From: Naegleria gruberi
Taxonomy: Eukaryota
Reading direction: 5' to 3' (one strand)
Assembly (NCBI GenBank): GCA_000004985.1
Contig: GG738906.1
DNA: 64,000 bases
Shown here: positions 24,993-50,741 of the stretch, in pieces
How the letters are laid out: each line of letters starts with the position of its first letter
Position numbering within the stretch: the stretch's first letter is position 1
Made by a program: the position numbers and the translations under genes
The notes under the pieces: generated by a model
What the model was told of the DNA's origin: nothing
Seen by the model: the letters and a program-made list of their open reading frames with translations, nothing else
Database searches by the model: none

Positions 24993-26438
24993 ATGAGACC
25001 AAAAAGCTATAATCCTCTCGATCCTATCATTCAAACACAACCTGATGCCGGAAGAGAAAATCTTCAATTGAAGGAAATTTTTGTTCGTGGAGTGGAAGCA
25101 ACAAGCGAATCTAAAATTACAGCTGCTTTCCAAGAAGCTAAAAAAGCTACAACTTTGAACGAATTGAACGAAGCTATTAGTATTGGTCTTGAACGTGTTG
25201 GAAAATTGGATGTTTTAAATAATGTTAATGTGATCCTTGATGCTGATGATAGTAAAAATGTTGCTCTTGTTTTGGACTGTAAGGAAAAACAATCAACTCG
25301 TCTTTCTGCTGGTACAACTGTTAATGACAAGGGTCAAGTTAAAGGAGAAATCTCCTTCGGATATAGAAATCTTTTAGGACAAGCTGATAGATGGGATGTT
25401 GATGCTAATATTGATAAGACTGGTTTGACACTTGTAGGACGTACTTTCCTTCCACAAAGCTTTAATAATGATGGTGCTCTCTATGTTAGTGGATTTTTAA
25501 ATGGAGGTAGAGTTTTAACAAATCTCTTACAAGAAAAGTCAAATGGTGTTTCTGTCAGAGCTGAAATTAATGATAGACATTCAATTTCCTATGATTTTGA
25601 AATGAGAAGAAATGAAGATGTTGGTTCCATGTTTAAGAAGGCCTCATCTTCTGGATCTTTCTCTAGATTCTTCTCTAGATTCTATAATGCCAAGACTCAA
25701 GATTCTGAGCCAGTTCTTGATAAGGATGATTCTGTTGTAAAGAGTCAAGTTTGGACTGAAGTTAAGGAACAAAGTGTTAAATCTTCCTTGTCTCATACTT
25801 ATCGTTTTGATACTAGAAACAGCTCATTTGCTCCATCTAGTGGCGCATTTTTCAAATTAGTTCATAGATTAGCAGGATTGGGAGGTGATGTCAAACACTA
25901 CTCTGTTGATATGAATGGTGAAGTGTTTGTTCCTCTCATTTCAGATTCTTTAGTTGCTGCTTTAAAGCTTAATGTTGGTACAATTATACCATTGGACAGA
26001 CAAAATGATACATTCATTTCATTGAATGATAGATTTATCGAAAAGGTACGTGGTTTCCCAGCTGTGGGTACTGTTCATCCACGTTCTGAAGAAGTTTATG
26101 GAGGTAATATTAAGGCTGTAGCCACTGGTAGACTTGTATTCCCATTCCCAGTGTCGTTCATTCATCAATTACTTGGATTACACTGTCAAGCATTTTGTGA
26201 CATTGGCAATGTTTCAAATATTAATGATTACAGTGAAAATGGAGTTCAACAATTTAGAGAAAAATTCTGTAAGGGACTTCATACCAGTTATGGCTTTGGT
26301 CTTGCCATGATGTTAAGCTTTGGTAGAATTGAATTTAATTTTGCTAAGCCATCAACCTTATTCAATGATCAAACAAATCTTCCACCAACTCTTAATAGTT
26401 TCAAACAATTTTCAATTCACTACGTATTTAATGAATAA
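24993..26438 (+). CDS. Omp85/D15-family beta-barrel protein (mitochondrial SAM50/Tob55-like) with an N-terminal POTRA-like region
   Basis: POTRA-like N-terminus (QLKEIFVRGVEATSESKITAAFQEAKK…VGKLDVLNNVNVILD). The C-terminal barrel has alternating-hydrophobic strands (…HTSYGFGLAMMLSFGRIEFNFAKP…QFSIHYVFNE). Family call is by pattern and length (481 aa). Confidence 0.55.
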   Translation: MRPKSYNPLDPIIQTQPDAGRENLQLKEIFVRGVEATSESKITAAFQEAKKATTLNELNEAISIGLERVGKLDVLNNVNVILDADDSKNVALVLDCKEKQSTRLSAGTTVNDKGQVKGEISFGYRNLLGQADRWDVDANIDKTGLTLVGRTFLPQSFNNDGALYVSGFLNGGRVLTNLLQEKSNGVSVRAEINDRHSISYDFEMRRNEDVGSMFKKASSSGSFSRFFSRFYNAKTQDSEPVLDKDDSVVKSQVWTEVKEQSVKSSLSHTYRFDTRNSSFAPSSGAFFKLVHRLAGLGGDVKHYSVDMNGEVFVPLISDSLVAALKLNVGTIIPLDRQNDTFISLNDRFIEKVRGFPAVGTVHPRSEEVYGGNIKAVATGRLVFPFPVSFIHQLLGLHCQAFCDIGNVSNINDYSENGVQQFREKFCKGLHTSYGFGLAMMLSFGRIEFNFAKPSTLFNDQTNLPPTLNSFKQFSIHYVFNE

Positions 26439-26512: not shown

Positions 26513-27728
26513 ATGAAAAGATTTATCATCAAGTTGGGAAAAGAAGGAAATGCATCAACCAAATCCGAAGGAATTTATCTATCACACATTTCCGATTTAC
26601 ACACCTGGCAACCTGAAAAGTTTGAATATCCTATCACAATAGCAAATCTAATGAAAAACAACAAATTAAAAGATTTAAAACAAATTCAAGGATTTTTAAA
26701 TGTAAAATACAATAGAGGGCCAAATTTGTATCAAGTACAGGTGTTACAAGAAACATTGCAAAAGATTTCAACATCAATCGTCACTCAACAAAATCATCAC
26801 TTGCTTGTCAGTGGGGACATTACAAACATTTCTCATTTGGAGGAATTCAAACTGGCAAAAGAAATACTTGTGGACAAATTTAAACAATTAATTGAATTAG
26901 AAAATGAAGAGGATTTATTTAAATATTGTACTCTAGTACCAGGTAAATTATCAAATATTTATAATTTAAAAGCATAATTCAGGAAATCATGATACATACA
27001 CACCATCCAGTGTTTCAGATAATTATTTTGGAAATTTCTTCAAAAATACATTGGGTCAACATTACTATCCCGAGCTATTAGAGAATAATTACTTTTTAAA
27101 ATCAAAAAATTCACAACTCACACAAGAAATGTCAAATCGATTCGTTTCCTCTCTTTATGATTTATTTCCTAATGTAAAGCTTTTACATAACACAGATGGA
27201 ACTAAGGTTTTAATAATTTCCTTATTGTCATGTGTACCAACCAAACCATTTGTTGCAGCTGGAAATATTAAAGAACAAGCACTTGTGAATGCCTCAATTT
27301 TAATCGAGAATATGAAACAGACAATGAAAGAGGAAGGTATTGATGCAGATGCACTCTTCAAGGTTGTACTCATGCATCATCCACCAATTGAACGAGCCAA
27401 AAATTCATTTAGAGAGAAACTGGATGGTCTAGATACGGCATCCAAAAAGAGAGTTCAAGATTTTTGCGAGAGGGAACGAATCGATTTGCTACTTCATGGA
27501 CATACTCATATTCCATTCAGAGGGACCATAGGAGATTCCTATAAGACACTCATAGTTGATAATGGATCTTCCACATATGTCAACATGGAAAAGCCAAACA
27601 AAATGGCCAGATTTAATACCTATCATATTAAGGGTACTCGTCTTCAAACAATAGAACAACATGTTTGGGATCCAATTTCTCAATCATTTAATGAAAGTAC
27701 AATCCTAAATACCTCCTCCGTCAATTAA
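26513..27728 (+). CDS. Calcineurin-like metallophosphoesterase. Exons 26513..26942 and 26983..27728 (intron GTAAAT…AATTCAG)
   Basis: Metallophosphatase motifs SHISDLH, SGDITN, LVPG|GNHD (restored by the splice), VLMHHPP and GHTHIPF. The ORF track alternatively starts at 26453. The stop at 27726..27728 overlaps the serine acetyltransferase CDS on the opposite strand. Confidence 0.7.
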
Positions 27729-29232
27729 ATCAATTTGGCCAGTGCTCTCGAATAAAACTCTGAAACATTCTTCATCATTATCAACGCCAGCAGTAATTTC
27801 TTCTGTATAGGTTTCTTGCTTAGTTTGTTGAGTGGTAGTGGCCTTTTTCTTTTTTCTGAGCTTGTTGAAAGTAGGTTTTGTCTGTTCTTCATCATCACTT
27901 GAATCTATGCCAATTAATTTAAGTTTAGATCTCAAATATTTGAGTTCTTGTTCCAATCTCTTCTCTCTAATGTAAAGAGCACGAATAGCTTGAGCATCAA
28001 TATCATCATATTGATAGACTGTAGAGGAGTTGTTACCTTGCTGTTGTGGTTTTTTAGATAAAGAATTTAAAGCCATTGTAATAATAGAGGAAGGAGAAAG
28101 AACAGACTCATCATTAACACTTTCTGAATTAGGTGGCACAGTTGTATCAACCACCAATTTTTTAGGTTTTTCAGATGATTGGTTATTATTAACAAGTTTC
28201 ACAATATTGTTGTCAATTAGTTTTGTGCCATTATCAGCAATAGCTTCAGAGGAGGCTCCAGTGTTGGTATCAGCATAACCTGCAGTTGAACTCTTCTTAT
28301 CCTTGATGCATCTTGCAGGAATACCAACAAGGGTGCAATCACTTGGGGCATCCTTAACAACTACTGAGCCAGCTCCAATTTTAACATTTGATCCAATAAT
28401 TATATTTCCCAACACTTTTGATCCAGCTCCAACAAGTACATTATCCCCAAGAGTAGGGTGTCGTTTGCCAGTTTCCTTACCAGTACCTCCAAGTGTCACT
28501 AAATACAGAATATTATAGAAATCATGATGAATATCACATACCTCCTTGATAGAGAGTACAATAATTTCCAAGAATTGCTGTTTCTCCAATTACAACTCCA
28601 CAACCATGATCAATGAAAAATCCCTTACCAATTCTTGCACCTGGATGAATTTCAATACCAGTCCAAGATCTTGAAATAATACACATCAATTTGGCTACAA
28701 ATCTAAGAATTTTACAAGCCAAAAGCAGAAAATTACTATTCGAATTTTGAGGGTCAATAATATAGTAGAGTAAATGAGCTATTCTATAAGTGAGTATTGC
28801 CCATAATCCAGGATAGAGTATTAATTCAAGATAATTATCAAATGCAGGATCATTATCAATAATCACAGAAACGTCAGATTTGAGTTGAGACCATATAGGT
28901 TCGGAACAAACACAAACTGATTCAGTATGTTCCTCAATGGTATGTGGTTTTTGTTTTGTTGTACTGAGCTTTGAAAGAGAGTGTAACAATTGTTCTCCTT
29001 CCAAAGCTATAACTGATGGTTTTTCAGTAGGTTGATTAACAATGGGATGACTATTCTTTGAAAACGATTCGTCTTCGGAAGAATTTCCAACAGATCCCAA
29101 CACAACTAAATCAGCATATGAAGCTTTTATCTTGTTTAAAGGAGAAGAAGATGATGAACCCGAATGATGATGGAGATGCTTGGAAGAGGAGTTATCATCA
29201 GGAACAACAACTTTGTTTAGAGTGGTGCTCAT
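27705..29232 (-). CDS. cysE: Serine O-acetyltransferase (CysE-type, hexapeptide left-handed beta-helix) with a long C-terminal extension. Exons 28542..29232 and 27705..28498 (43-nt intron 28499..28541)
   Basis: The joined sequence is …IEIHPGARIGKGFFIDHGCGVVIGETAILGNYCTLYQG|VTLGGTGKETGKRHPTLGDNVLVGAGSKVLGNIIIGSNVKIGAGSVVVKDAPSDCTLVGIPARCI, the canonical SAT signature. It is followed by about 190 aa of N/S/K-rich, coiled-coil-like tail. The N-terminus is S/H-rich. Confidence 0.8.
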
Positions 29233-32976: not shown

Positions 32977-33307
32977 ATAGGTGATTTATCACATGTTCCT
33001 TAATCAATTTAATATTTACAAACTGAAAACACAAAAATGAAACGAAATAAAAATTTTAAATATCAATATATCTAGATTATTCAAGAGGAGAAAACTCTCA
33101 CAAAATGAGTACATCTTTTATTTCATCAAGTTTTAAAAAGGTCCATAATTCTTCTAGCACTGCAACTCTATTGAGGCTCAAAGTAATTGGAAGGAAAGTT
33201 TGCTAAAGGAACAATCAATTAATTAATGGATGTCTACCTAAACAAGAAGAAAACAAATCTCAAGTCATTGTCTATTATTGTTTTAAACGGATAACTCATA
33301 AAAAAAA

Positions 33308-35218
33308 ATGTCAGTTGCCAAAAGCCCCACTAAAAAATTAAAATTTATTTGCTCTACTTCGTGTTCGGGACAAGAGCAAGAACGTGAACTTCTTGGACAC
33401 TATGAAAATGTAGAAACAAATGATAGAAGATTATTAAAAAAGAAGAGACAAGTTGATGAAACAATGGTACAACCATTGGAAGCTTCTCTACATCAACAAC
33501 AAACAGAAATAATTCTTGATGCTACATCAGCTGATCATCAAAATAATCAAACCGATACAATAATAGGAAATGATATTGGAAAGCCAACAAATTTCAAAAG
33601 AGGTATTCACATTGCCATTGATCATGAAAATGGAATTTTAAAAGGTTTGTTTAAAATAATAATCATCTCTCTTACACTTTCACCTCTTTGAAACCCTACT
33701 CTCTATATATACACACACAAACTAATCATATATTTCTATTTTATATATACACACTCTGTGCTCATATATAGGTGTTCCTGAACAATGGAGAGCCAAAGTT
33801 GGTGATGCACACTCATATGACAATTATCGTAAAATGACTGAAGATGAACCAATTGCACCTTATTTAATTCCCGATTTAGATCTAAATGCCGATTCCAAGA
33901 AGAAGAAGAATGATACAACAAGAACAACAACAACAGCACTTATTATTTCTGAACCACGTGAATTTACACATCACATTCATGTTGATTATAACCCTGAAAC
34001 TGGGTTTACTGGTTTACCAGATACTTGGAAAGAGATTTTAACTTCTGGTGTTAATGCAGGTCAAATTACAGTTGACGATGTTATGAATAATAAGGAAGAT
34101 GCATTAAGAATTGCAGAGGTAAGTTTAATTTCAACACGTAATTATATTATCATTTTTCAATGAATAATAATTTATTACACATATTTATTACAGTTTATTG
34201 ACAGTGGAATGACATTAGCACCTCTTAAAATTGATAAATTTCAAGGAGTCAAACAAAAAAGATTACCTGATTTTATTTCAATTGAAGATCCAACAAAGAT
34301 TTTTGAAAACATGATGCCAATAGATGAAGGATCAACAGGTGTTGTCATGATTGGAACTCACATCAAAACAGGATTGAAATGTGCATTGAAAAAAATTGAA
34401 ATTCAACAAACAACGAAATTGGAAGCTCTAGAAAATGAATTAACAATGATGGAATCATGTAAACATAATAATATTGTAGCATATATGGGAGCTTATCAAC
34501 ACAATAGTCATTTGTGGATTTCAATGGAACTTATGGACTGTGGGAAATTAACTGATCTCATCTATAAAACTATTCTAAGAGAGGATGAGATTGCATACGT
34601 TTTGAGAGAGACACTCAAAGCTTTGAAATATTTACACGACAATAACAAAATGCATAGAGATATTAAGAGTGATAACATTCTTGTTAACTCAAAAGGTGAA
34701 ATTAAATTAGCAGATTTTGGATTTTGTGTCGAGTTGAGTACCAAGAAGGAAAAACACAAGAGTACCGTAGGTACACCATTTTGGATGGTAAGTTATTCTC
34801 TTTTTTTTTCAAAATTCATACAAGTATCTATTAGGCTCCAGAAGGTTAGTTTCTTATTATTTATAACACTGTATCAAATTTCAAAAAAATAGTAATAAGA
34901 GCCATCGAGTATGGTCCTAATGTTGATATTTGGAGCTTGGGTATTATGGCTTTAGAAATGGCAGAAGGTGAGCCTCCTCTTATTGAACTTCCTGTTCTTA
35001 GGGCACTGTTTATAATTGCAACCCAAGGCCCACCAACATTAAAGGAACCACACAAATGGTCAGCCAATTTTAGTGACTTTTTATCAAGATGTTTGGTTAA
35101 GGATCCTATGGAGAGAGCATCATCCTCAGAATTATTGGAACACCCATTTTTAAAGATTGCTTGTGAACCACAAAAGATGGCCGACTTGATGAAAAAGTAT
35201 CACTTGTCAAAACACTAA
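33308..35218 (+). CDS. p21-activated kinase (PAK/STE20 family) with two CRIB motifs. Exons 33308..33644, 33772..34118, 34194..34787, 34835..34844 (10-nt micro-exon), 34893..35218
   Basis: CRIB 1 is [23 protein letters not shown]|GVPEQW and CRIB 2 is [32 protein letters not shown]. The kinase carries GSTGVVMIG…[21 protein letters not shown] and GTPFWM|APE|[17 protein letters not shown]. The APE codons come from the micro-exon GCTCCAGAAG, between TCTATTAG| and |GTTAGT. Confidence 0.8.
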
Positions 35219-35277
35219 TGTATTTTTAATGTAAATTATGTCAGAAAACTATCCAACAAGTTCATTTTACAAAAGTT

Positions 35278-38200
35278 TTACATATTTGCTTTCTTTGAGG
35301 ACACCAATCTTCCCTCTGACCAAACTTCGTCAAAGGACATGGAAAGTGTTTTTGAGTTTGGTGTTGCCAACCTTTTTTCTACATTATCTTTTGTTTCTAA
35401 TATTCCTACCCCGTGCTTTTTTCCTTTAAACCACTCCCCTCTATATTTAACTCCTGATGATAGCCCTTCAAAGAAGTAAATTCCCTTTCCTTGCTTTTGG
35501 TCGTTCACCCATTCACCATCATAAATATCACCATTGGCATAGGTAAAAGTTCCATGGCCTTGTCTCTTTCCGTCAACCACTTCTCCTTCATAGACACCTT
35601 CGAGATAAGTAATGATAGCCTTACCAGTTTGTTTATCCTTAGCCCACTCTCCTTCATACTTTGTAACACCATCTCCATAAGTTAAGGTACCTTCACCATG
35701 TCTACATCCTTTTTCGAATTCACCACAATATACAGAACCATCCCTAAAAGTAAATGTTCCCTTGCCATCTGGGAAATTATCAACAAAGTTGCCTTCATAC
35801 TTGTCACCAAGAGAAGTGTATTCAATTATTGCTTGTCCATTTTTTTTATCTTTCTCCCAATCACCAACGTGTGTGTAATTTGGAGTAAAATAATAGCCTT
35901 GCCCATGCCTATTATCGTCCAAGAGTTCCCCAGTATAGACAGATCCATCTGGATACTCTATTCTACCATAACCTGATTTTTTACCATTTACCCAAGAACC
36001 GTCATATGTTAGATCCGAACCTTTGTAAAAACCTTTACCATTAGGTTGACCTTTTCTGTCTAGTTCTCCACTATATTGTCCTTTTGCAAAATTAATATCT
36101 CCTCTAATAGGAGAGCTTGGTTCCTCCGCTATCTCATTTATCTGTGCTGCACTTTGATTGCCTTCTGTTGCACTATCATTTTCCTTATTAGCATCTGCTA
36201 ATATTTCTGCTTTTGGGGATTCTTTTTTTTCTGGTGTAATTGACTCAAGTTGATTAGTTTCATCATTAGAGGAGTTAGTTTGCAATGGTGTTAAATCTGT
36301 TGAGGCAGAAGGGGATAATGATTTTGGATATGTTATTTTTAAATTTGAATATTCTGGAGGAGGAGATAGTTGAGATTTTCTATTACTCTCCTCTTCGTCA
36401 TCATCCTTAATTAAAAGATTCCACTTTTTTGGAGATTCAAACGCTTTAAGAGTATCCTTGTTTTGTTTAAATCCGAGTTTGTGTTTTTTCTTTTTTTCTT
36501 GATTAAGTGATTTAAGTCTGGATGCAATAGGGGATTCGCTCCTTGAAAAATCTTCCTTAGTTAGTTTAGGGCTCTCATAAACAGGCATTTCAAGCCTGGT
36601 ATTAAGCATCTTTTCAAATGTGGTCTCCTCTTCGCTCTCTTCTGTTATTGGTGTATCTATAATATCACTACCATCAATATTATCAAAAGAAGTATCTGCA
36701 ATAATTTGTACAACGTCCTTAGGTCTTTCAGAAAAGACTGTTTGTGAAATATCATCTACTACATCATTTTCTTCCCCGTAACTAGATTCTGAAGAATCGG
36801 AATCATCCCCCGATGAGTTTGATGAAGACAAAATTGCTTTTGATGATTCCGAGTCTACTTCTTTTGCAACATTGGGTTTGCTTTCCTCTTGATTGGCATA
36901 ATGTGGAGGCTCATCAAATTCCTTAAGCGTTTTTTTGGAGGCTTCCATAGATGGTTCTTTTGCAGAGCGTTGTGCAGCACTATCAATGCCATTTGTTTTT
37001 TCTAGCTCAGTTGTGATTGGATAGAACGGTTCCTTTTTAGTTGCAGCATTAGAGATGTTTTGGATTTCGTTAGAGTGCAAGTTTTCATCATAGGTTTTGA
37101 GTTCCTCATCATCTGAAGAGGAGGAATCATTACTTGGTCCCTCATTGCTAAAGACAGAGTTTGAAATTTCGTCTTTTGGAGACTCATTCTTTGCTTCATT
37201 AGGATGTGTAAATTGTTCAATTGGAATAGACTTGGGAATGATTAAATCTTCATTCATTTTAGCATTTCTAGAATCACTTACATCCTTTACTTTTTCTAAA
37301 TAAATTGTTGGCTCTTCTTTATGTTCCTTGCTTGGCACATATGTAGGGCAATTTTCTGTTAATAAGGGTTTGTTTTCAATACTTGAGCGGTCTGAATTGA
37401 CATCTTCTTGTGTCTGGTTATTTTGTTCCTGAACAACTTGTTTGGCAGGGTTAGGAGTCCTAGGACTGGAAGCTTCTCCCTTCTCAATTTCAGTAATATC
37501 TTGCTGAGAAATAGAAGTAACTTTTTGTTTAGACTGATCAGGATTAATTACTGAGTGAGATTGAATCTCTTCCGTAGCTGATTGGTTCTCCATAGAGCTT
37601 GGTTGTTGTGTTTCATCAGTTTGTTCCGAATGTTGTTTAACATCCATCAGATGGTTATGTTCATTAATTGATGTGTTTTTGGTTGAAAGGTATGTTTCTT
37701 GGGCTTGGGTTGAATTAATTACTGGATCTTGTCTTGATTCCTTTCTTGGTTTTGAGTCATCGAACGACATGGAGGCAACTTCGTGGTGAATGATTTGTTT
37801 TTCATCCTCAGATAGGTCGCTTGGTAACTCTGACAATGAATCAAGATCTAAATTTTGCGGTATATGGTTTTCTGAGCTTGAAGACTTACTCTCAGGTTCT
37901 TGCAATGAAACTTCCACTACTGTGGAAACTTTGTTCTTCTCTTGCAGATGTTCATCTTCGTTAATTGATACAGGAGGATCTTGTTTGACTTGAGGAGAGG
38001 AAGAATGGCTTTTAGCCTCAACAATTTTTAAAGTCTTTTCTTTTAACTTTTCAAAATTAGTTTTTGGTTTTGGTTGTGGAATTTCAGGTTCTGAAACAAT
38101 AGGATGTCCTACCCTTTCAGTATCTTGAGCTAGTGGTTCGTTGCATATATTCTCTTCCTCTGTTGAATAATCGCTCTCAGATGTAGATTCGCCATTGATA

Positions 38201-39810
38201 GCATCTTCATCTGTGATAGATTCCGAAGAATCAGAGATGATATTTTTCTTTGAATCTGTTTGAACAACAGGAGCAGACTGAGTTCCAGAGGAGACTTTAG
38301 ATGAGTTTTGTTTTTCAACTGGTGGATCAGATTGTTCTGTAGGCGATCTAGATGTTGGTTTCGAATGGAGAGGGATTGGTTTCGTTTCCTCCTCAATCTC
38401 TTCTATTTTACATACAGTTTCCTCCTCTCTAACAGGTTCCTCATAAATAATCTCAATACCCTTATATTGTTCAGATCTTGATTTTCTAGGTTCTTCAATG
38501 GTAATTTCATCTTGGTTTTCGAAATAGGTTTCATCAATATATTTGGACATGTCATCACTTTGAGATTTTACTGTCTTTTCCTTGTGAGTTGGTTTTTTGG
38601 GAATGGATTCCTTCTTTTTTGATTTTTTAGGTTCCTTCTTATTCTTGTTATATTTCTTTTTGTTTTGAGCTTCAGCAATGCTAATTGTGCTTCTGTTGCT
38701 GGTGGTAGGCTCTACTTGAGCTGAAGTTTGTAAATCACTATTTTTCTTTCTATTCTTTTTCTTTTTTGGTTTTTCAAGAGATTCTGAAGCTACTCTCATT
38801 GGAAGGTTTGGGACATATTCATATCGTTGATTTATCCATTCATCATCAAGTTTTTCTTCGTCTTTTTTTGAGATAACTTCAACAATGATTTCGTCTTCAT
38901 CAGTGCTTGTCAATGTTTCTTCAGCAATAGTAACTGTTCCCTTATCTCTTATTTTTACAATTCTCCTGGGATACATATCATCAGATTCCACATTTGGTAT
39001 GTAAGATTCTGGTTCAACAGGATCTGTTTGAGTGCTTGCATCGATTTCAAAATCTGGAGTTTGAGTTTGAACCTCTCTTTCATTCAAAGTTTGTCTAACA
39101 AGAAAAACTTCTTGCGAGGTTCTGTCGTAAACTACATCTACACTTGGCGATTTGAATCCTTGTTTGATCGCCTCTTTCATCAATTCAACTTCCTTAGCAT
39201 CCCCATGAATACGCTTCCCAAACATATTATCAATGACAGGAGGAATTTCTGTTCCTCTGGAATAAAGCTTAGTTTTGGAATAAATGAGACTCGGGTTAAT
39301 ATCTATTGATGTTTTCACCATTGCGTTTTTTCCTTGTTCAGCAACTTGCTGTTTCTTTTTCCTTTCTTCATCTTCCTCTCTCTGTGATATATAACTCATA
39401 TATTCTTGGGAGTGAAAAGTTGGTTTATCGGTAGGGTGATGAGAATCTACAAGTGGTTTGTAGGAAGAACCAGAAGAGAAAAACTTTTCTTTTAGTGGTG
39501 ACGAAATGGAAGGAAGTGTAAGGGAGAGCTCGGCTTGTCTCGATCTTAACGACTCATCAAAGGTGCTCACGTTTGAGTTTGGTGTATTCAAAGAACTCTT
39601 TGGCAAACTTGTTTTTGAGCCAGTAGTACTAAAACTAGAAAAGGGAGAATTTAAAATCGAAGAAAATGAAGGTGATAAATCCAATCTAGGTGGAGCAAAA
39701 TAAGATGATTCCTTCTTTCTTAAAATGTCATCCCTATTGTTCGTTGACGAGGAAAACGTTGAAAAGGGGGACGAAAAAGAAGGAGAGGAGAACTGATAGT
39801 CTCTGCTCAT
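35278..39810 (-). CDS. MORN-repeat protein, 1510 aa, with an ~1200-aa S/E/K-rich disordered N-terminal region; single exon
   Basis: The C-terminal ~250 aa hold about 9 MORN repeats (YDGSWVNGKKSGYGRIEYPDGSVYTGEL…, YEGEWAKDKQTGKAIITYLEGVYEGEVVDGKRQGHGTFTYANGDIYDGEWVNDQKQGKGIYFF). There are no stops in 4.5 kb. Confidence 0.7.
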   Translation of the reverse strand: MSRDYQFSSPSFSSPFSTFSSSTNNRDDILRKKESSYFAPPRLDLSPSFSSILNSPFSSFSTTGSKTSLPKSSLNTPNSNVSTFDESLRSRQAELSLTLPSISSPLKEKFFSSGSSYKPLVDSHHPTDKPTFHSQEYMSYISQREEDEERKKKQQVAEQGKNAMVKTSIDINPSLIYSKTKLYSRGTEIPPVIDNMFGKRIHGDAKEVELMKEAIKQGFKSPSVDVVYDRTSQEVFLVRQTLNEREVQTQTPDFEIDASTQTDPVEPESYIPNVESDDMYPRRIVKIRDKGTVTIAEETLTSTDEDEIIVEVISKKDEEKLDDEWINQRYEYVPNLPMRVASESLEKPKKKKNRKKNSDLQTSAQVEPTTSNRSTISIAEAQNKKKYNKNKKEPKKSKKKESIPKKPTHKEKTVKSQSDDMSKYIDETYFENQDEITIEEPRKSRSEQYKGIEIIYEEPVREEETVCKIEEIEEETKPIPLHSKPTSRSPTEQSDPPVEKQNSSKVSSGTQSAPVVQTDSKKNIISDSSESITDEDAINGESTSESDYSTEEENICNEPLAQDTERVGHPIVSEPEIPQPKPKTNFEKLKEKTLKIVEAKSHSSSPQVKQDPPVSINEDEHLQEKNKVSTVVEVSLQEPESKSSSSENHIPQNLDLDSLSELPSDLSEDEKQIIHHEVASMSFDDSKPRKESRQDPVINSTQAQETYLSTKNTSINEHNHLMDVKQHSEQTDETQQPSSMENQSATEEIQSHSVINPDQSKQKVTSISQQDITEIEKGEASSPRTPNPAKQVVQEQNNQTQEDVNSDRSSIENKPLLTENCPTYVPSKEHKEEPTIYLEKVKDVSDSRNAKMNEDLIIPKSIPIEQFTHPNEAKNESPKDEISNSVFSNEGPSNDSSSSDDEELKTYDENLHSNEIQNISNAATKKEPFYPITTELEKTNGIDSAAQRSAKEPSMEASKKTLKEFDEPPHYANQEESKPNVAKEVDSESSKAILSSSNSSGDDSDSSESSYGEENDVVDDISQTVFSERPKDVVQIIADTSFDNIDGSDIIDTPITEESEEETTFEKMLNTRLEMPVYESPKLTKEDFSRSESPIASRLKSLNQEKKKKHKLGFKQNKDTLKAFESPKKWNLLIKDDDEEESNRKSQLSPPPEYSNLKITYPKSLSPSASTDLTPLQTNSSNDETNQLESITPEKKESPKAEILADANKENDSATEGNQSAAQINEIAEEPSSPIRGDINFAKGQYSGELDRKGQPNGKGFYKGSDLTYDGSWVNGKKSGYGRIEYPDGSVYTGELLDDNRHGQGYYFTPNYTHVGDWEKDKKNGQAIIEYTSLGDKYEGNFVDNFPDGKGTFTFRDGSVYCGEFEKGCRHGEGTLTYGDGVTKYEGEWAKDKQTGKAIITYLEGVYEGEVVDGKRQGHGTFTYANGDIYDGEWVNDQKQGKGIYFFEGLSSGVKYRGEWFKGKKHGVGILETKDNVEKRLATPNSKTLSMSFDEVWSEGRLVSSKKANM

Positions 39811-40010: not shown

Positions 40011-42776
40011 ATGATAAACTCAGCCACTGAAGAAGAGGAGGAGGAATACATTTTAGCCAACTCGGACACACCCACAAATGTTAGGAGGAGAAGACTATGG
40101 GCTATTCCAAGTCCTTCCTTAGGTATTTCACCATCTGCACGTTGGGGTCACTGCTCTGTGTTATTGCACCATCACAATATAAATTCTTTCCATCCAACTT
40201 TAATGATATTTGGAGGATTTGATGGTTCGAACATGTTGAATGACATACACCTCTTTGATTCTGTTACCAACACTTGGAGTCAACCATCTAAAACGTTTGG
40301 AACAATACCATCAGCAAGATCTGGACATTCCACAACACTATTGACAAAAGAGAAAGGGAAAATATTATTGATTGGAGGAGGTAATGGCGTCCATTATTTA
40401 GCAGATTTAGTTCTACTTGAAGTTGTTAGCGAGGAAGATGAAGAATGGAAGAAGGAATCACAATTATTAGGTAATAATTCAGGAATTAAATGTATGAATA
40501 TGTTTAGATGGTCTCGACCTAAAGTATCAAGTCGTGTTAGAGTTTACATTTCTGATGATGACATTATTCTAACAGAGGAACAGTTTCAAAAGTTACAAGA
40601 GGAAATTAACAATAGTAAGAATAACCCTTCTGAAATATCGGAAGATGATCAAAACCCACTTGTTTCATCGAAGGTTGTTGAACAGTATATTAAAGCAAAT
40701 CAATCTGGAACAACAGAAGATTTGATTGGTTTTGGAAATCCATCACATCACGAACAATTAGATTCTCTAAATTTTACTATGAAAGAAATATATCCAGCTC
40801 CTAGAAGCAGACATACAGCCGTTGCTACTGAAGATGGCAGCAAAGTTATTGTATTTGGTGGTGGTGGTAAAAATCGAATTTTTGATGATGTATGGGTATT
40901 TCATGTACAGGAAATGGAATGGAGTCAACCTCAAGATTCTACAAATAAGCCTTGCCCAAGATGGGGTCACTCTGCTTGTATACATTCAGGTAAAATGTTT
41001 GTGTATGGTGGAGTTTTCAAGTCAAGCATGTTGAATGATTTATATTCTCTAGATTTGAATACCTTTGTTTGGACTAAAATTGAATTACCAACTTCAGATC
41101 CCATTCCTTCTCCAAGAGCAGCTCATACTGCCAACTTGGTTCTCGGTAGATATTTGTTAATTTTATGGGGAGGTGATGATATGAAATATTTGGATGATAT
41201 ATATATTTTTGATCTAAAAACTAATAGTGGAAAGAGAATATCATTTAAAAGTCCAAAAGCAAGATGTGCACATACATCTTGTCTTGTTGATGATAATTAT
41301 CTATTTGTATTTGGAGGAGGAGGAAGCCATCAAAGATTTAAAGAGCTTTATTTGTTCGATATCAAGGCAGCACTTGAAAAGGTTGGAATTTATGAAAATT
41401 TTGGATATGAATCTGATGATGAGTTTGAAGAAAATTTCAGTACCGATTTTTCAGATTATCTATGCCTTTCTCAATATTTGGATAAAGCCTCTCAATCATT
41501 CTTGGAGGTGAGGAGCGATATAAAAGTAGAAGGAAATGTTAATAATTTGGAGGAGAGATCCGAAAACACTCCTAACGTAACTGGAGACCCTAATATACCC
41601 TCGAGTGCAACATCTGTCTCTTCTGGAAAATCATCAAAAACAAGAAGAAAGAGATCCAGTTCAAAGAAAAAAACTTTGAGTAATATTTCAAATGGTAGTA
41701 TTTCTAATGATATGATGGCTTTCAGTAGTAAGGATATTAAGGAAGTAACCAATTGGTTAGTTAACTTGGGTCTAGGTAGATATGCAAATATGTTTGTACA
41801 AGAGGAAATAGATTTAGAGTGTATACCACTTCTTACTGACACAGACTTATTCAAACTTGGAATTTCTAAATTCGGTCCAAGAAAGAAAATTCTAGACGCT
41901 GCAAAGAAAATTACAAAATCATCTGAATCCGAGTCGGCTAACCACCACATTCATTCTAGGTCAACAAGTAATTTAAGTGAGACGTTACATTTGGAAAATA
42001 ACTCTCATGCCATTATTCAAAGTATGAGCTCTCTGAATATTACCTGTGACGGTATTAAGGATACTCTAAAATCACTTTCCTCAAACATATCAAATCTCAC
42101 ACTCATTCTGTCTAACCCATTCTATGGTTTTAGACATCCAACAGCTGTTGCTATTTCAATGCATAACAATACTAATACCTCATTTTCAAATGGAATTCCT
42201 ACAAATGTTCCACCCCAGCCTTCAACCCCTTCTACATCTACAAACAGTCAACCACCACTTTCACCTAGACAATCCAATTACTCTGTATCAATGTTTAATC
42301 AAAATATTCCACCTCCACCACCTAATCTTAGTCCAGTGTTTATTTCAAGACCCAGAAACACATCAGCTGTTGTGACTCCAATAGCTACATCCACTAGTAC
42401 ACCATTCAAAAGAAGTAATCCTAATTCTACTAGTAATAGTATCCTCATTCCAACCAAAGAATACCCAAATAGTTCAGCCATAAAATCTGATTCCAATTCT
42501 TCTTCTTTTGGAGGAAATATGGTTGAACCACAATATTCCCCAATATCACCCCCTCTTACTGGTATTGTTCCAATACCCCCACCTCCAACTAATGTACCAA
42601 TTCTGAAAAAGAAACGTAAACGAAAACCAAGGAAAAATGGAACATTCTCACAACAATCAAAAGATTTTGAAAACACCAATGATGAATCTCCTGAATTACC
42701 GTCTTTCTCAGCAGGAGAAAGTTGGTTTGATGTGACAGAAAAAGATTTAGAACAAGATTCAGAAAATGAAAATTAA
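40011..42776 (+). CDS. Kelch-repeat beta-propeller protein with a C-terminal SAM domain and a P/S/T-rich tail
   Basis: Kelch-like repeats in the N-terminal 450 aa (SARWGHCSVLL…IFGGFDG; SARSGHSTTLL; PRSRHTAVATEDGSKVIVFGGGG; CPRWGHSACIHSGKMFVYGG). SAM-like region IKEVTNWLVNLGLGRYANMFVQEEIDLECIPLLTDTDLFKLGISKFGPRKKILDAAKKI. Confidence 0.65.
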   Translation: MINSATEEEEEEYILANSDTPTNVRRRRLWAIPSPSLGISPSARWGHCSVLLHHHNINSFHPTLMIFGGFDGSNMLNDIHLFDSVTNTWSQPSKTFGTIPSARSGHSTTLLTKEKGKILLIGGGNGVHYLADLVLLEVVSEEDEEWKKESQLLGNNSGIKCMNMFRWSRPKVSSRVRVYISDDDIILTEEQFQKLQEEINNSKNNPSEISEDDQNPLVSSKVVEQYIKANQSGTTEDLIGFGNPSHHEQLDSLNFTMKEIYPAPRSRHTAVATEDGSKVIVFGGGGKNRIFDDVWVFHVQEMEWSQPQDSTNKPCPRWGHSACIHSGKMFVYGGVFKSSMLNDLYSLDLNTFVWTKIELPTSDPIPSPRAAHTANLVLGRYLLILWGGDDMKYLDDIYIFDLKTNSGKRISFKSPKARCAHTSCLVDDNYLFVFGGGGSHQRFKELYLFDIKAALEKVGIYENFGYESDDEFEENFSTDFSDYLCLSQYLDKASQSFLEVRSDIKVEGNVNNLEERSENTPNVTGDPNIPSSATSVSSGKSSKTRRKRSSSKKKTLSNISNGSISNDMMAFSSKDIKEVTNWLVNLGLGRYANMFVQEEIDLECIPLLTDTDLFKLGISKFGPRKKILDAAKKITKSSESESANHHIHSRSTSNLSETLHLENNSHAIIQSMSSLNITCDGIKDTLKSLSSNISNLTLILSNPFYGFRHPTAVAISMHNNTNTSFSNGIPTNVPPQPSTPSTSTNSQPPLSPRQSNYSVSMFNQNIPPPPPNLSPVFISRPRNTSAVVTPIATSTSTPFKRSNPNSTSNSILIPTKEYPNSSAIKSDSNSSSFGGNMVEPQYSPISPPLTGIVPIPPPPTNVPILKKKRKRKPRKNGTFSQQSKDFENTNDESPELPSFSAGESWFDVTEKDLEQDSENEN

Positions 42777-50100: not shown

Positions 50101-50741
50101 AAAAGAACCCAATCTAAACCGTGTGAATCATTAATAATATGAACTGAGTATTCCATAAAATAGAAGTTTGAAATGTCAGGATCTTCAGTATTAACATAGG
50201 AACAAGTCCAATGACACAGAAGAGGTATTCTTGAGAGCTGATTCTGGCATTGGATAAATTATCCTTCTTTCCAATACTTTAGCAGTCTGTAAAATAAAAA
50301 CAACAAACAATATATTTTGAAGACTTAAACATTGTGATATTTGAACTGTTGTCATCATTTGTTGATGAGGGATGAATCTTATTATCAGGTTGCTTATATA
50401 ACTTGAACTTCTTTGAGAGAAGTGGTTTGCAGTGATTGAGCTACCATCTTGAGAATTTTATTCTGTAAGTTTTTTGAAACTATTCGTGCTTGTTTCTATA
50501 TTTATTTGAACAATACACAAAATACACAAGGTAAACAGAATTAACTCCGCTAACAATTATCAAAAGTTGAGTAGAGTTTTAATATCACCTTACTCACTTT
50601 TGTACCATATTGTTTCTAACTTATTATAATACTCACAGGAAAGAAAATAACAACCTTTCCTTTAACACCAGATTAAACTTCAACAAAAATTTGTGCATCA
50701 AGTAAATCTAGAACATTTTGTGCTGCAAGCGAGCAAAAAAA

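What the first reader, a model, noticed from the sequence alone, without database searches (positions are those of the whole stretch)
33308..34893. PAK kinase with two tandem CRIB motifs and a 10-nt micro-exon encoding the APE motif
Most PAKs carry one CRIB. Here a second, slightly divergent CRIB ([15 protein letters not shown]…GVPEQW, itself split by the 127-nt intron 1) lies ~80 aa upstream of the canonical one ([28 protein letters not shown]). Within the kinase domain, the invariant A-P-E of subdomain VIII is supplied by a 10-nt exon, GCTCCAGAAG at 34835..34844, flanked by TATTAG| and |GTTAGT.
Basis: partly seen in the sequence, partly recalled or inferred. Interest (0 to 1): 0.5.

Follow-up and report, generated by a model that had tools for sequence, protein, structure and literature searches.

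The report
Two-CRIB PAK kinase gene with micro-exon
This is a real five-exon Naegleria gruberi gene for a p21-activated kinase with two GTPase-binding (CRIB) motifs and a 10-base exon that supplies the essential A-P-E motif. Both features recur in relatives, so it is a sound but fairly ordinary gene whose public model is cut short.

Summary
Exons 33308-33644, 33772-34118, 34194-34787, 34835-34844 and 34893-35218, all GT..AG, give a 537-aa PAK. Both CRIBs pass Pfam PBD on their own (31.5 and 48 bits, cut-off 21.3).

The 10-nt exon is the only splice route that restores [13 protein letters not shown]. Its signature occurs once in 64 kb (0 expected).

The window is N. gruberi NEG-M. The deposited model for this gene is a 212-aa fragment. 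It already contains the micro-exon but lacks the kinase N-lobe and both CRIBs.

Two CRIBs are not rare in this clade. 85 of 176 full-length homologs have them, from Heterolobosea, jakobids, metamonads, centrohelids, ancyromonads and stramenopiles. The N-terminal CRIB has its own conserved signature, F-x-R-G-x-H.

The micro-exon is lineage-specific, because the N. lovaniensis and Willaertia orthologs lack it. Its upstream intron (M|A, phase 0) sits at a position shared with Willaertia and another paralog.

N. fowleri and N. lovaniensis paralogs carry a 3-nt exon (CCT, the Pro of APE). All four deposited models of these paralogs are wrong at APE.

No transcript evidence exists for this gene itself. 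Interest is modest.

The parts
33308..33644 (+). Exon 1 (337 nt). Holds the start codon, an N-terminal Cys-rich/ELLxxYE segment, a low-complexity stretch and the first 23 residues of CRIB1. It ends in phase 1 inside the Gly113 codon.
   Evidence: In-frame TAA at 33299-33301. The N-terminus aligns with the N. lovaniensis and Willaertia orthologs.
33575..33788 (+). CRIB1 coding span (residues 90-118, [29 protein letters not shown]), interrupted by intron 1.
   Evidence: Pfam PBD 31.5 bits alone, profile positions 1-31 of 59. Own CRIB HMM 39.4 bits. It is nearly identical in the orthologs.
33645..33771 (+). Intron 1 (127 nt, GTTTGT..ATATAG, phase 1).
   Evidence: N. lovaniensis ortholog A has an intron at the same position and phase.
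33772..34118 (+). Exon 2 (347 nt). Holds the end of CRIB1, a conserved linker ([30 protein letters not shown]), a poorly conserved K/T-rich spacer, CRIB2 and the inhibitory-switch-like helices.
33945..34028 (+). CRIB2 core (residues 171-198, [28 protein letters not shown]). The full PBD match extends to residue 229.
   Evidence: Pfam PBD 48 bits alone, profile positions 2-57 of 59. It aligns over 68 residues to the human PAK1 autoregulatory fragment 1F3M_A.
34119..34193 (+). Intron 2 (75 nt, GTAAGT..TTACAG, phase 0).
   Evidence: N. lovaniensis ortholog A has an intron at the same position.
34194..34787 (+). Exon 3 (594 nt). Holds the kinase N-lobe through the activation segment and ends ...[10 protein letters not shown]. 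It contains K294, E310, HRD 382-384, DFG 402-404 and the activation-loop residue T419.
   Evidence: Pfam Pkinase 225 bits over residues 267-516. Residues checked.
34788..34834 (+). Intron 3 (47 nt, GTAAGT..TATTAG, phase 0, between Met426 and Ala427).
   Evidence: The same M|A phase-0 position is used in Willaertia paralog B (L022) and in metagenomic contig L021.
34835..34844 (+). Exon 4, the 10-nt micro-exon GCTCCAGAAG. It encodes Ala427-Pro428-Glu429 and the first base of Val430.
   Evidence: It is included in the deposited 212-aa N. gruberi model P0212.
34845..34892 (+). Intron 4 (48 nt, GTTAGT..AAATAG, phase 1). This position was not seen in any other locus examined.
   Evidence: A 99.6%-identical environmental strain (L005) has a 2-nt deletion here (34878-34879), which is tolerable only if the stretch is non-coding.
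34893..35218 (+). Exon 5 (326 nt including the TAA stop at 35216-35218). Holds the kinase C-lobe from [17 protein letters not shown] to the C-terminus.

Best explanation
The locus is one constitutively spliced five-exon gene of Naegleria gruberi. It encodes a catalytically competent Ste20/PAK kinase of the PAK1 (group I) type, from a widespread protist subfamily with two CRIB motifs.

Shown:
- The gene model.
- All catalytic residues are present, including the activation-loop Thr419.
- Both motifs are CRIBs by profile.
- CRIB2 continues into a PAK1-like inhibitory-switch region, while CRIB1 is a bare CRIB hairpin.
- The architecture is conserved in orthologs, in paralogs and across distant protist groups.

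Inferred mechanism for the protein:
- CRIB2 plus the inhibitory-switch region holds the kinase inactive. Binding of a GTP-loaded Rac-type GTPase releases it, as in PAK1.
- CRIB1 is of the distinct F-x-R-G-x-H type. It offers a second GTPase docking site. That would raise avidity for membranes rich in active GTPase, or require a second GTPase to be active at the same time.

Inferred origin and handling of the micro-exon:
- It is a gene-structure accident, not a functional module.
- An old phase-0 intron between Met and Ala of WMAPE was joined, in the N. gruberi lineage, by a second intron 10 nt downstream.
- The flanking introns are short (47 and 48 nt), so they are probably recognised by intron definition and removed one after the other.
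- Inclusion is obligatory. Skipping shifts the frame into TAA TAA and removes kinase subdomains VIII-XI.
For: Gene model:
- All four introns are GT..AG. The 537-aa product is collinear with the N. lovaniensis ortholog (71-74% identity) and the Willaertia ortholog (66-67%).
- Pkinase scores 225 bits and PBD matches in two stretches.
- K294, E310, HRD, DFG, T419, APE and R504 are all present.

CRIBs:
- CRIB1 scores 31.5 bits and CRIB2 48 bits when scanned alone.
- CRIB2 plus the following region aligns to the PAK1 autoregulatory fragment 1F3M_A over 68 residues and to the Entamoeba PAK4 CRIB 4MIT_E.
- In the AF2 model of the ortholog, both CRIBs form beta-hairpins. Three helices follow CRIB2 and one short helix follows CRIB1.
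- 47 of 121, then 85 of 176 full-length homologs have two CRIBs. Pfam confirmed two PBD stretches in 9 of 10 representatives.
- Position 9 of the motif is Arg in 59% of N-terminal CRIBs and His in 78% of C-terminal CRIBs.
- Engineered tandem CRIBs show stronger membrane recruitment (PMC10234108).

Micro-exon:
- The signature is unique in the window, with 0 expected.
- It is the only APE-restoring splice route.
- It is present in the independent public model P0212.
- Strain L005 has a 2-nt indel in intron 4 but a 3-nt in-frame indel in exon 2.
- The M|A intron is shared with Willaertia paralog B and L021.
- Analogous 3-nt exons, AG|CCT|GTAAGT, occur in N. lovaniensis paralogs B and C and in N. 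fowleri paralog B.
Against: - No transcript of this gene was found in the protein collection. Only the genome-derived P0212 and an unspliced metagenomic ORF (P0003) match it closely, so splicing and expression are not directly shown.
- The micro-exon is absent from the N. lovaniensis and Willaertia orthologs and from the P0004 relative. There is therefore no cross-species conservation of this exon.
- CRIB1 departs from the classical consensus: Ser to Gly in this species, the first His to Arg, and HVG to HIA. GTPase binding by CRIB1 is untested.
- The 'old intron' inference rests on one position shared between paralogs. Parallel gain at the same site is not excluded.
- The AF2 model is of the ortholog, not of this protein. 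Its regulatory region has only moderate confidence (pLDDT about 60-80).
Confidence: 0.8

Rival explanations
1. The micro-exon is a regulated switch. When the 10 nt are skipped, the frame shifts into TAA TAA right after ...GTPFWM. The product would be a kinase-dead protein that still carries both CRIBs and could act as a GTPase decoy, or the mRNA could be degraded. On this reading the cell tunes PAK activity by splicing.
For: - Skipping gives an immediate stop.
- Micro-exons of this size are hard for the spliceosome to include, and in animals they are often regulated (PMC4317164 and PMC8378409, abstracts).
- Paralogs place micro-exons in the very same motif.
Against: - No skipped or retained isoform was seen, although no transcripts of this gene were available at all.
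- The N. gruberi paralog transcripts P0006, P0122 and P0123 all contain APE.
- Orthologs without the micro-exon show that the family does not need such a switch.
- The short flanking introns fit simple constitutive intron-definition splicing.
Confidence: 0.1
2. CRIB1 is not a GTPase-binding site. It is either a decayed duplicate kept for another purpose, such as an intramolecular contact, dimerisation or binding of a non-GTPase partner, or it prefers GDP-bound Rac as reported for coronin CRIBs.
For: - The first conserved His of the CRIB consensus is Arg in 59% of N-terminal CRIBs. In this species Ser2 is Gly.
- Only profile positions 1-31 of 59 match.
- Similarity between CRIB1 and CRIB2 is limited to 30 residues at 33% identity.
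- Dictyostelium coronin CRIBs prefer GDP-Rac (PMC4585930 abstract).
Against: - The motif passes the Pfam cut-off on its own.
- It keeps I-x-x-P-x-x-F, the second His, the Asp and the G-[VL]-P-x-x-W hairpin.
- It is strongly conserved from Heterolobosea to metamonads and centrohelids, and it is predicted as the same beta-hairpin as CRIB2.
- These points argue for a conserved CRIB-like binding function.
Confidence: 0.2
3. The public 212-aa model is right. On this reading the kinase C-lobe fragment is the gene, and the upstream CRIB/N-lobe exons are a separate gene or a decaying pseudogene remnant.
For: The deposited N. gruberi protein P0212 starts at Met326.
Against: - Exon 3 is one uninterrupted ORF running from residue 229 through Met326 to residue 426.
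- A kinase lacking its N-lobe, including K294 and E310, cannot be active.
- The N. lovaniensis (501 aa) and N. fowleri (511 aa) orthologs are full-length and collinear with this model. The CRIB1 to linker region is near-identical, and introns 1 and 2 are shared.
- The 99.6%-identical strain shows only one missense SNP and one in-frame 3-nt indel in exon 2.
Confidence: 0.03

Closest known systems
Human PAK1 (group I p21-activated kinase; autoinhibited structure 1F3M)
   Same: - An N-terminal CRIB/PBD overlaps an inhibitory-switch region and is followed by a Ste20-type kinase domain.
- The activation-loop Thr lies in the same context, [13 protein letters not shown] against PAK1 R-S-T-M-V-G-T-P-Y-W-M-A-P-E (PAK1 sequence from my own knowledge).
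- CRIB2 plus the inhibitory-switch region aligns to 1F3M_A over 68 residues.
   Different: - This protein has a second CRIB 81 residues upstream.
- I noticed no proline-rich Nck/PIX-binding motifs. This was by eye only and was not tested.
- The protein is short, 537 aa.
- The gene structure has a micro-exon in APE.
Entamoeba histolytica PAK4 CRIB bound to EhRacC (4MIT)
   Same: It is a protist PAK whose CRIB is structurally shown to bind a Rac-type GTPase. It matches the CRIB2 region.
   Different: The matched chain holds a single CRIB, from a different supergroup (Amoebozoa).
Uncharacterised two-CRIB PAKs in public protein sets, for example N. lovaniensis XP_044545905.1, N. fowleri XP_044557629.1, Willaertia magna ABK040_010790, Andalucia godoyi 'pakC' and Percolomonas, Pharyngomonas, Pterocystis, Fabomonas, Platysulcus, Chilomastix and Dysnectes proteins
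   Same: - The architecture is the same: an N-type CRIB (F-x-R-G-x-H ... G-V-P-x-x-W), a linker of about 40-60 aa, a C-type CRIB with inhibitory-switch region, then the kinase.
- The Naegleria and Willaertia entries are direct orthologs.
   Different: - None of the relatives whose DNA could be read has the 10-nt micro-exon.
- None is experimentally studied, as far as the searched literature shows.
Other natural proteins with two CRIBs: Dictyostelium GnrC (Q551I6) and coronin 7
   Same: They carry two CRIB motifs in one polypeptide. GnrC has them consecutively at the N-terminus (PMC8847673). Coronin 7 has one in each WD domain (PMC4585930).
   Different: Neither is a kinase. Coronin CRIBs prefer GDP-Rac.
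Very small constitutive micro-exons (15 nt or less) that annotation pipelines miss, as described in plants (PMC8831610)
   Same: These are exons of a few nucleotides inside conserved domain-coding sequence. They are needed to keep the frame or motif and are frequently misannotated. The 3-nt CCT exons of the N. fowleri and N. lovaniensis paralogs are missed in all four deposited models examined.
   Different: - The organism is a heterolobosean with about 1.7 exons per gene (PMC8296547).
- The exon in this window is already included in the public model.
- Transcript proof is lacking here.

Membership tests
Ste20/PAK protein kinases | Eukaryotic protein kinase domain with the catalytic Lys, alphaC Glu, HRD, DFG and APE motifs intact | tested here: met
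   Pfam Pkinase 225 bits over residues 267-516. K294, E310, H382-R383-D384, N389, D402-F403-G404, A427-P428-E429 and R504 are all present. The best homologs are all PAKs.
Ste20/PAK protein kinases | CRIB/PBD located N-terminal to the kinase domain | tested here: met
   Pfam PBD 71 bits in two stretches. The best stretch is residues 171-229, covering profile positions 2-57 of 59.
Group I (PAK1-like) PAKs | Autoinhibitory inhibitory-switch region overlapping and following the CRIB | tested here: inconclusive
   Sequence alignment to the PAK1 autoregulatory fragment 1F3M_A covers 68 residues at E = 2.5e-5. The AF2 model of the ortholog shows three helices after CRIB2. Docking on the kinase and actual inhibition were not tested.
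Group I (PAK1-like) PAKs | Activation by binding of GTP-loaded Rac/Cdc42 and autophosphorylation of the activation-loop Thr | not testable with these tools
   Thr419 is present in the K-S-T-V-G-T-P context.
CRIB motif (I-S-x-P-x(2,4)-F-x-H-x(2)-H-V-G) | CRIB2 matches the consensus | tested here: met
   I171[13 protein letters not shown]. Every consensus position is kept except the final Gly, which is Asp. It scores 48 bits alone.
CRIB motif (I-S-x-P-x(2,4)-F-x-H-x(2)-H-V-G) | CRIB1 matches the consensus | tested here: inconclusive
   I90[13 protein letters not shown]. Ser is replaced by Gly, the first His by Arg, Val by Ile and Gly by Ala. It still scores 31.5 bits against the 21.3 Pfam cut-off and belongs to a conserved N-type class. 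The strict PROSITE-style pattern is not met, but the profile is.
Constitutive micro-exon | Canonical splice sites on both sides, and the exon is required for the reading frame or motif | tested here: met
   TATTAG|GCTCCAGAAG|GTTAGT. It is the only APE-restoring solution and is unique in the window.
Constitutive micro-exon | Transcript (junction) evidence | not testable with these tools
   No transcript-derived protein of this gene is in the collection. The public model P0212 includes the exon, but its evidence basis is unknown. Transcript-derived proteins of the N. gruberi paralog contain APE where the genomic model has VSFL.
Constitutive micro-exon | Conservation of the exon in orthologs | tested here: not met
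   In N. lovaniensis ortholog A (L001) and Willaertia ortholog A (L002), APE is contiguous with the downstream exon. Only the upstream intron position is shared, and only with paralogs.

The most novel reading that the evidence does not exclude
Two-CRIB PAKs are an ancient, nearly pan-eukaryotic class that animals, fungi and dictyostelids lost. Their N-type CRIB (F-x-R-G-x-H) would recognise a different Rho-family GTPase, or a different nucleotide state, from the C-type CRIB, so the kinase fires only when two signals coincide.

In Naegleria these genes have also repeatedly acquired 3- to 10-nt exons inside the APE codons. These exons are systematically mis-modelled in the N. fowleri and N. lovaniensis reference proteomes, and their skipping could serve as an off-switch.
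Probability: 0.25. Interest if true: 0.6.

Novelty: new variant of a known kind. Interest (0 to 1): 0.35.

Why it matters
**Annotation.** The public N. gruberi entry for this gene is a 212-aa half-kinase. The true product is a 537-aa PAK with two GTPase-binding motifs. At least four PAK paralog models are wrong at the APE motif because a 3-nt exon was missed:
- N. fowleri XP_044569861.1
- N. lovaniensis XP_044547441.1
- N. lovaniensis XP_044541789.1
- N. lovaniensis XP_044548727.1

Two of these models simply lack the Pro, and the other two are mis-spliced there. N. gruberi XP_002678953.1 is also wrong at the same motif, reading VSFL where transcript-derived proteins have AP. Anyone doing kinome, drug-target or phosphoproteomic work on the brain-eating amoeba and its relatives would be using faulty sequences. 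A PAK was reported as upregulated in mouse-passaged N. fowleri (PMC8296547).

**Biology.** The data show that a PAK with two CRIBs of distinct types is a common protist architecture, and no paper in the searched library describes it. This gives a concrete starting point for asking how amoeboid cells with 20 or more Rho GTPases wire their effectors.

None of this overturns current understanding. It is a useful correction and a modest evolutionary observation.

Tried and rejected
- **Metagenome scans.** Two scans of JGI metagenome contigs, one with the protein and one with an ortholog alignment, found no close relatives. The best was 47% identity, so no further genomic copies of the 10-nt exon were obtained.
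- **N. gruberi genomic loci.** The loci for the paralog (P0121) and for the public model of this gene (P0212) could not be retrieved. The exon structure of the N. gruberi paralog, whose model reads WM-VSFL-EVIRG, is therefore only inferred.
- **Structure prediction.** The N. lovaniensis ortholog was modelled instead.
- **Intron origin.** I tested whether introns 3 and 4 are copies of each other or of a repeated 'introner'. There were no significant matches elsewhere in the window. Their mutual similarity was reached by 15 of 500 shuffles and lies mostly at the splice-site ends. Rejected.
- **Read-through.** I considered read-through of 34788-34892 as coding, as in the metagenomic ORF P0003. 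Rejected, because in this window it runs into TAG/TAA stops. It is open in strain L005 only because of a 2-nt deletion.
- **Literature.** Phrase searches for natural two-CRIB PAKs and for Naegleria micro-exons found only engineered tandem-CRIB sensors, coronin 7, GnrC and PLD2.
- **RNA genes.** tRNA and Rfam scans of the window gave nothing.
Full report
**What is in the sequence**

The region reads as a five-exon gene on the + strand: 33308-33644, 33772-34118, 34194-34787, 34835-34844 and 34893-35218. All four introns are GT..AG, with lengths of 127, 75, 47 and 48 nt. An in-frame TAA lies 9 nt upstream of the ATG. The 1614-nt CDS gives a 537-aa protein. An independent exhaustive spliced mapping of that protein onto the DNA returned the same exons. 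The only omission is that the gene continues to the TAA at 35216-35218.

**Whose gene it is, and what the public record says**

Five intronless ORFs elsewhere in the window are exact matches to Naegleria gruberi NEG-M proteins (EFC38556-58, EFC38562, EFC38617) on a 286,411-nt scaffold. The deposited model for this gene (P0212, 'predicted protein') is only 212 aa. It starts at internal Met326 and is 100% identical to my model from there to the stop, including [13 protein letters not shown].

- The 10-nt micro-exon is therefore already in the public model.
- What the public model lacks is the kinase N-lobe and the whole regulatory region with both CRIBs.
- The long model is the right one. Exon 3 is a single ORF across Met326, and a kinase without K294 and E310 is dead.
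- The N. lovaniensis (501 aa) and N. fowleri (511 aa) orthologs are collinear with the long model, and the CRIB1/linker block is almost identical. N. lovaniensis, whose locus was read, also shares introns 1 and 2.

**The kinase and the two CRIBs**

Pfam gives Pkinase at 225 bits (residues 267-516) and PBD in two stretches. All catalytic residues and the PAK1-T423-equivalent Thr419 are present.

Scanned separately, CRIB1 (residues 90-118) scores 31.5 bits and CRIB2 (residues 171-198) scores 48 bits, against a cut-off of 21.3. The two motifs are not equivalent.

- CRIB2 matches profile positions 2-57 of 59. Together with the next 40 residues it aligns to the human PAK1 autoregulatory fragment 1F3M_A (68 residues, E = 2.5e-5) and to the Entamoeba PAK4 CRIB of 4MIT.
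- CRIB1 matches only profile positions 1-31.
- The two share 33% identity over 30 residues and nothing beyond that.
- In an AlphaFold2 model of the N. lovaniensis ortholog (mean pLDDT 79.6), both CRIBs form beta-hairpins. CRIB2 is followed by three helices, as in the PAK1 inhibitory switch. CRIB1 is followed by one short helix.

**How unusual two CRIBs are**

They are not unusual among this gene's relatives.

- A CRIB HMM built from the hits finds two CRIBs in 47 of 121 proteins from the first search, and in 85 of 176 proteins of 380 aa or more from two searches.
- Pfam confirms two PBD stretches in 9 of 10 representatives tested.
- Named sources include Naegleria, Willaertia, Percolomonas and Pharyngomonas (Heterolobosea), Andalucia (jakobid), Chilomastix and Dysnectes (metamonads), Pterocystis (centrohelid), Fabomonas (ancyromonad), Platysulcus (stramenopile) and an entry labelled 'Rmarinus'.
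- Dictyostelid, fungal, animal, Anaeramoeba and Acrasis hits have one CRIB.
- The N-terminal CRIBs form their own class. Position 9 is Arg in 59% and position 10 is Gly in 66%, followed by L-K-G-V-P. The C-terminal CRIBs have His in 78% at position 9, followed by G-F-x-G-L-P. This pattern across distant groups suggests one old duplication, but that is an inference.
- I found no paper describing natural two-CRIB PAKs. A survey of protozoan CRIB proteins omits Naegleria and notes only the non-kinase GnrC as having two consecutive CRIBs (PMC8847673). Engineered tandem CRIBs bind membranes more avidly (PMC10234108).

**Evidence for the micro-exon**

- AGGCNCCNGARGGT occurs once in the 64 kb, at 34833-34846, with 0 expected.
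- I enumerated every GT..AG combination. 29 single-intron solutions are in frame and stop-free, and none keeps APE. Of four internal-exon solutions, only 34835-34844 yields [13 protein letters not shown], identical to the orthologs.
- Unspliced, the window runs into TAG and TAA. Skipping the exon gives TAA TAA straight after WM.
- A metagenomic contig 99.6% identical to 33728-36335 (L005, ENA ERZ929261) differs inside the gene by one missense SNP (L150Q), one in-frame 3-nt deletion in the Thr-rich spacer of exon 2, and a 2-nt deletion inside intron 4. The only frame-breaking indel lies where the model says non-coding.
- There is no transcript evidence. No RNA-derived protein of this gene is in the collection.

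**The micro-exon in relatives**

I mapped full GT-AG models for five related loci and read three more.

| Locus | Structure around APE |
|---|---|
| N. lovaniensis ortholog A (L001) | Intron seven codons upstream (KST\|VGTPYWMAPEV), none at APE |
| Willaertia ortholog A (L002) | Intron at DF\|GF only |
| Willaertia paralog B (L022) | Single phase-0 intron exactly at WM\|APE, the position of this gene's intron 3 |
| Metagenomic contig L021 (B-like) | Single phase-0 intron exactly at WM\|APE |
| N. lovaniensis paralog B (L003) | 3-nt exon...TGGATGGC[TA]\|GTAAGTA...AG\|CCT\|GTAAGTA...AG\|GAAGTTATT |
| N. lovaniensis paralog C (L004) | Same 3-nt exon structure |
| N. fowleri paralog B (L023) | Same 3-nt exon structure |
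| JGI contig L020 (paralog B) | No intron at APE |

AGCCNGTAAGT occurs in the 23 fetched loci only at the three 3-nt exon sites.

The deposited models all fail there.

- N. fowleri XP_044569861.1 and N. lovaniensis XP_044541789.1 read WMAEVIRG, without the Pro.
- N. lovaniensis XP_044547441.1 reads WMAPVSIMALEMA.
- N. lovaniensis XP_044548727.1 reads WMAPVIIRG.
- N. gruberi XP_002678953.1 reads WM-VSFL-EVIRG. The transcript-derived protein P0123 is otherwise identical to it apart from one substitution, and reads WMAPEVIRG. VSFL looks like a GTAAGTTTCTTA donor read as codons.

Intron 3 of this gene therefore sits at an old, shared position. Intron 4 is so far unique. Micro-exons of 3 to 10 nt inside the APE codons are a recurring feature of Naegleria PAK genes. 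For scale, N. gruberi averages 1.7 exons per gene, 894-bp exons and 203-bp introns (PMC8296547).

**How it most likely works**

- *Shown:* the gene encodes an intact PAK with two profile-positive CRIBs. The micro-exon is indispensable for the APE motif and the frame.
- *Inferred for the protein:* regulation is PAK1-like, through CRIB2 and the inhibitory-switch region. CRIB1 is an extra docking site that adds avidity or a second-input requirement. N. gruberi is reported to have at least 23 Rho GTPases (PMC8305917).
- *Inferred for the exon:* the micro-exon has no role of its own. It arose when a second intron landed 10 nt from an older one, and it is spliced constitutively by sequential intron definition.
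- *Rivals:* a splicing switch (0.1), a non-GTPase role for CRIB1 (0.2), and the truncated public model being right (0.03).

**Verdict**

The finding is real and correctly interpreted. It is a member of a widespread but undescribed two-CRIB PAK subfamily. The 10-nt exon is already in the public model. The useful new points are the corrected full-length model, the missed 3-nt exons in the pathogen N. fowleri and its relative N. lovaniensis, and the breadth and two-type nature of the dual-CRIB architecture. Interest is modest.

Noticed in passing
L003:2712-2714, L004:2904-2906, L023:2275-2277: PAK paralogs of N. lovaniensis (two genes) and N. fowleri carry a 3-nt exon CCT, the Pro of APE, between two GTAAGTA-type introns. 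The deposited proteins XP_044547441.1, XP_044541789.1, XP_044548727.1 and XP_044569861.1 are all wrong at this point: two lack the Pro and two are mis-spliced.
   Followed up: yes
N. gruberi XP_002678953.1 (P0121, NAEGRDRAFT_32381); not in this window: The deposited N. gruberi paralog model reads WM-VSFL-EVIRG and is N-terminally truncated (307 aa). The transcript-derived protein P0123 (450 aa) matches it except for one substitution and reads WMAPEVIRG. This implies another unannotated micro-exon, predicted at about 6 nt (GCNCCN). The genomic DNA could not be fetched.
   Followed up: partly
window 34476-35218 (public model P0212) versus 33308-35218: The public model of this gene starts at internal Met326 (212 aa). 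It omits 325 residues, including the kinase N-lobe and both CRIBs.
   Followed up: yes
window 33341-33403 (residues about 12-32): A conserved N-terminal motif, [FL]-x-C-x(1,3)-C-x-G-x-E-x(3)-E-L-L-x-x-Y-E, is shared with the N. lovaniensis, N. fowleri and Willaertia orthologs. It is predicted as a helix of low confidence in the ortholog. The paired Cys could be a lipidation or metal site.
   Followed up: no
window 33789-33880 (residues 119-149): The segment right after CRIB1 ([30 protein letters not shown]) is almost invariant in the orthologs. Paralogs show a looser W-x(3)-G-x(3)-Y ... P-x-L-[IL]-P pattern. Its function is unknown.
   Followed up: no
window 33728-36335 versus L005: An ENA metagenome contig (ERZ929261, run ERR1078381, PRJEB11402) is 99.6% identical to this stretch, so an N. 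gruberi-like strain is present in that environmental sample. In that strain a 2-nt intron deletion makes the unspliced region an open frame, which a prokaryote-style gene caller reported as protein P0003.
   Followed up: partly
aligned codons around DFG...APE in the window, L001-L004, L020-L023: Six different intron positions fall within about 30 codons of the activation segment across nine related loci: DF|GF, ST|VG, WM|A, WMA|P, P|E and E^V phase 1. Two loci have none. This suggests an intron gain, loss or sliding hot spot.
   Followed up: partly
window 35219-35277: Only 59 nt separate the PAK stop codon from the stop of the convergent 1510-aa MORN-repeat gene (35278-39810, minus strand, XP_002671361.1). 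The two 3' UTRs very probably overlap.
   Followed up: no
window 24993-26435; 27705-28586 (minus strand); 40011-42773; 50718-55745: Neighbouring ORFs are an Omp85-superfamily protein (Sam50/Tob55-like), a hexapeptide-repeat transferase, a Kelch-propeller plus SAM-domain protein, and a 1676-aa ORF with no Pfam match.
   Followed up: no
L001:4783-4962: The 180-nt intron of the N. lovaniensis ortholog, 7 codons upstream of APE, contains a tandem repeat of AATTTTAATGAACA-like units.
   Followed up: no
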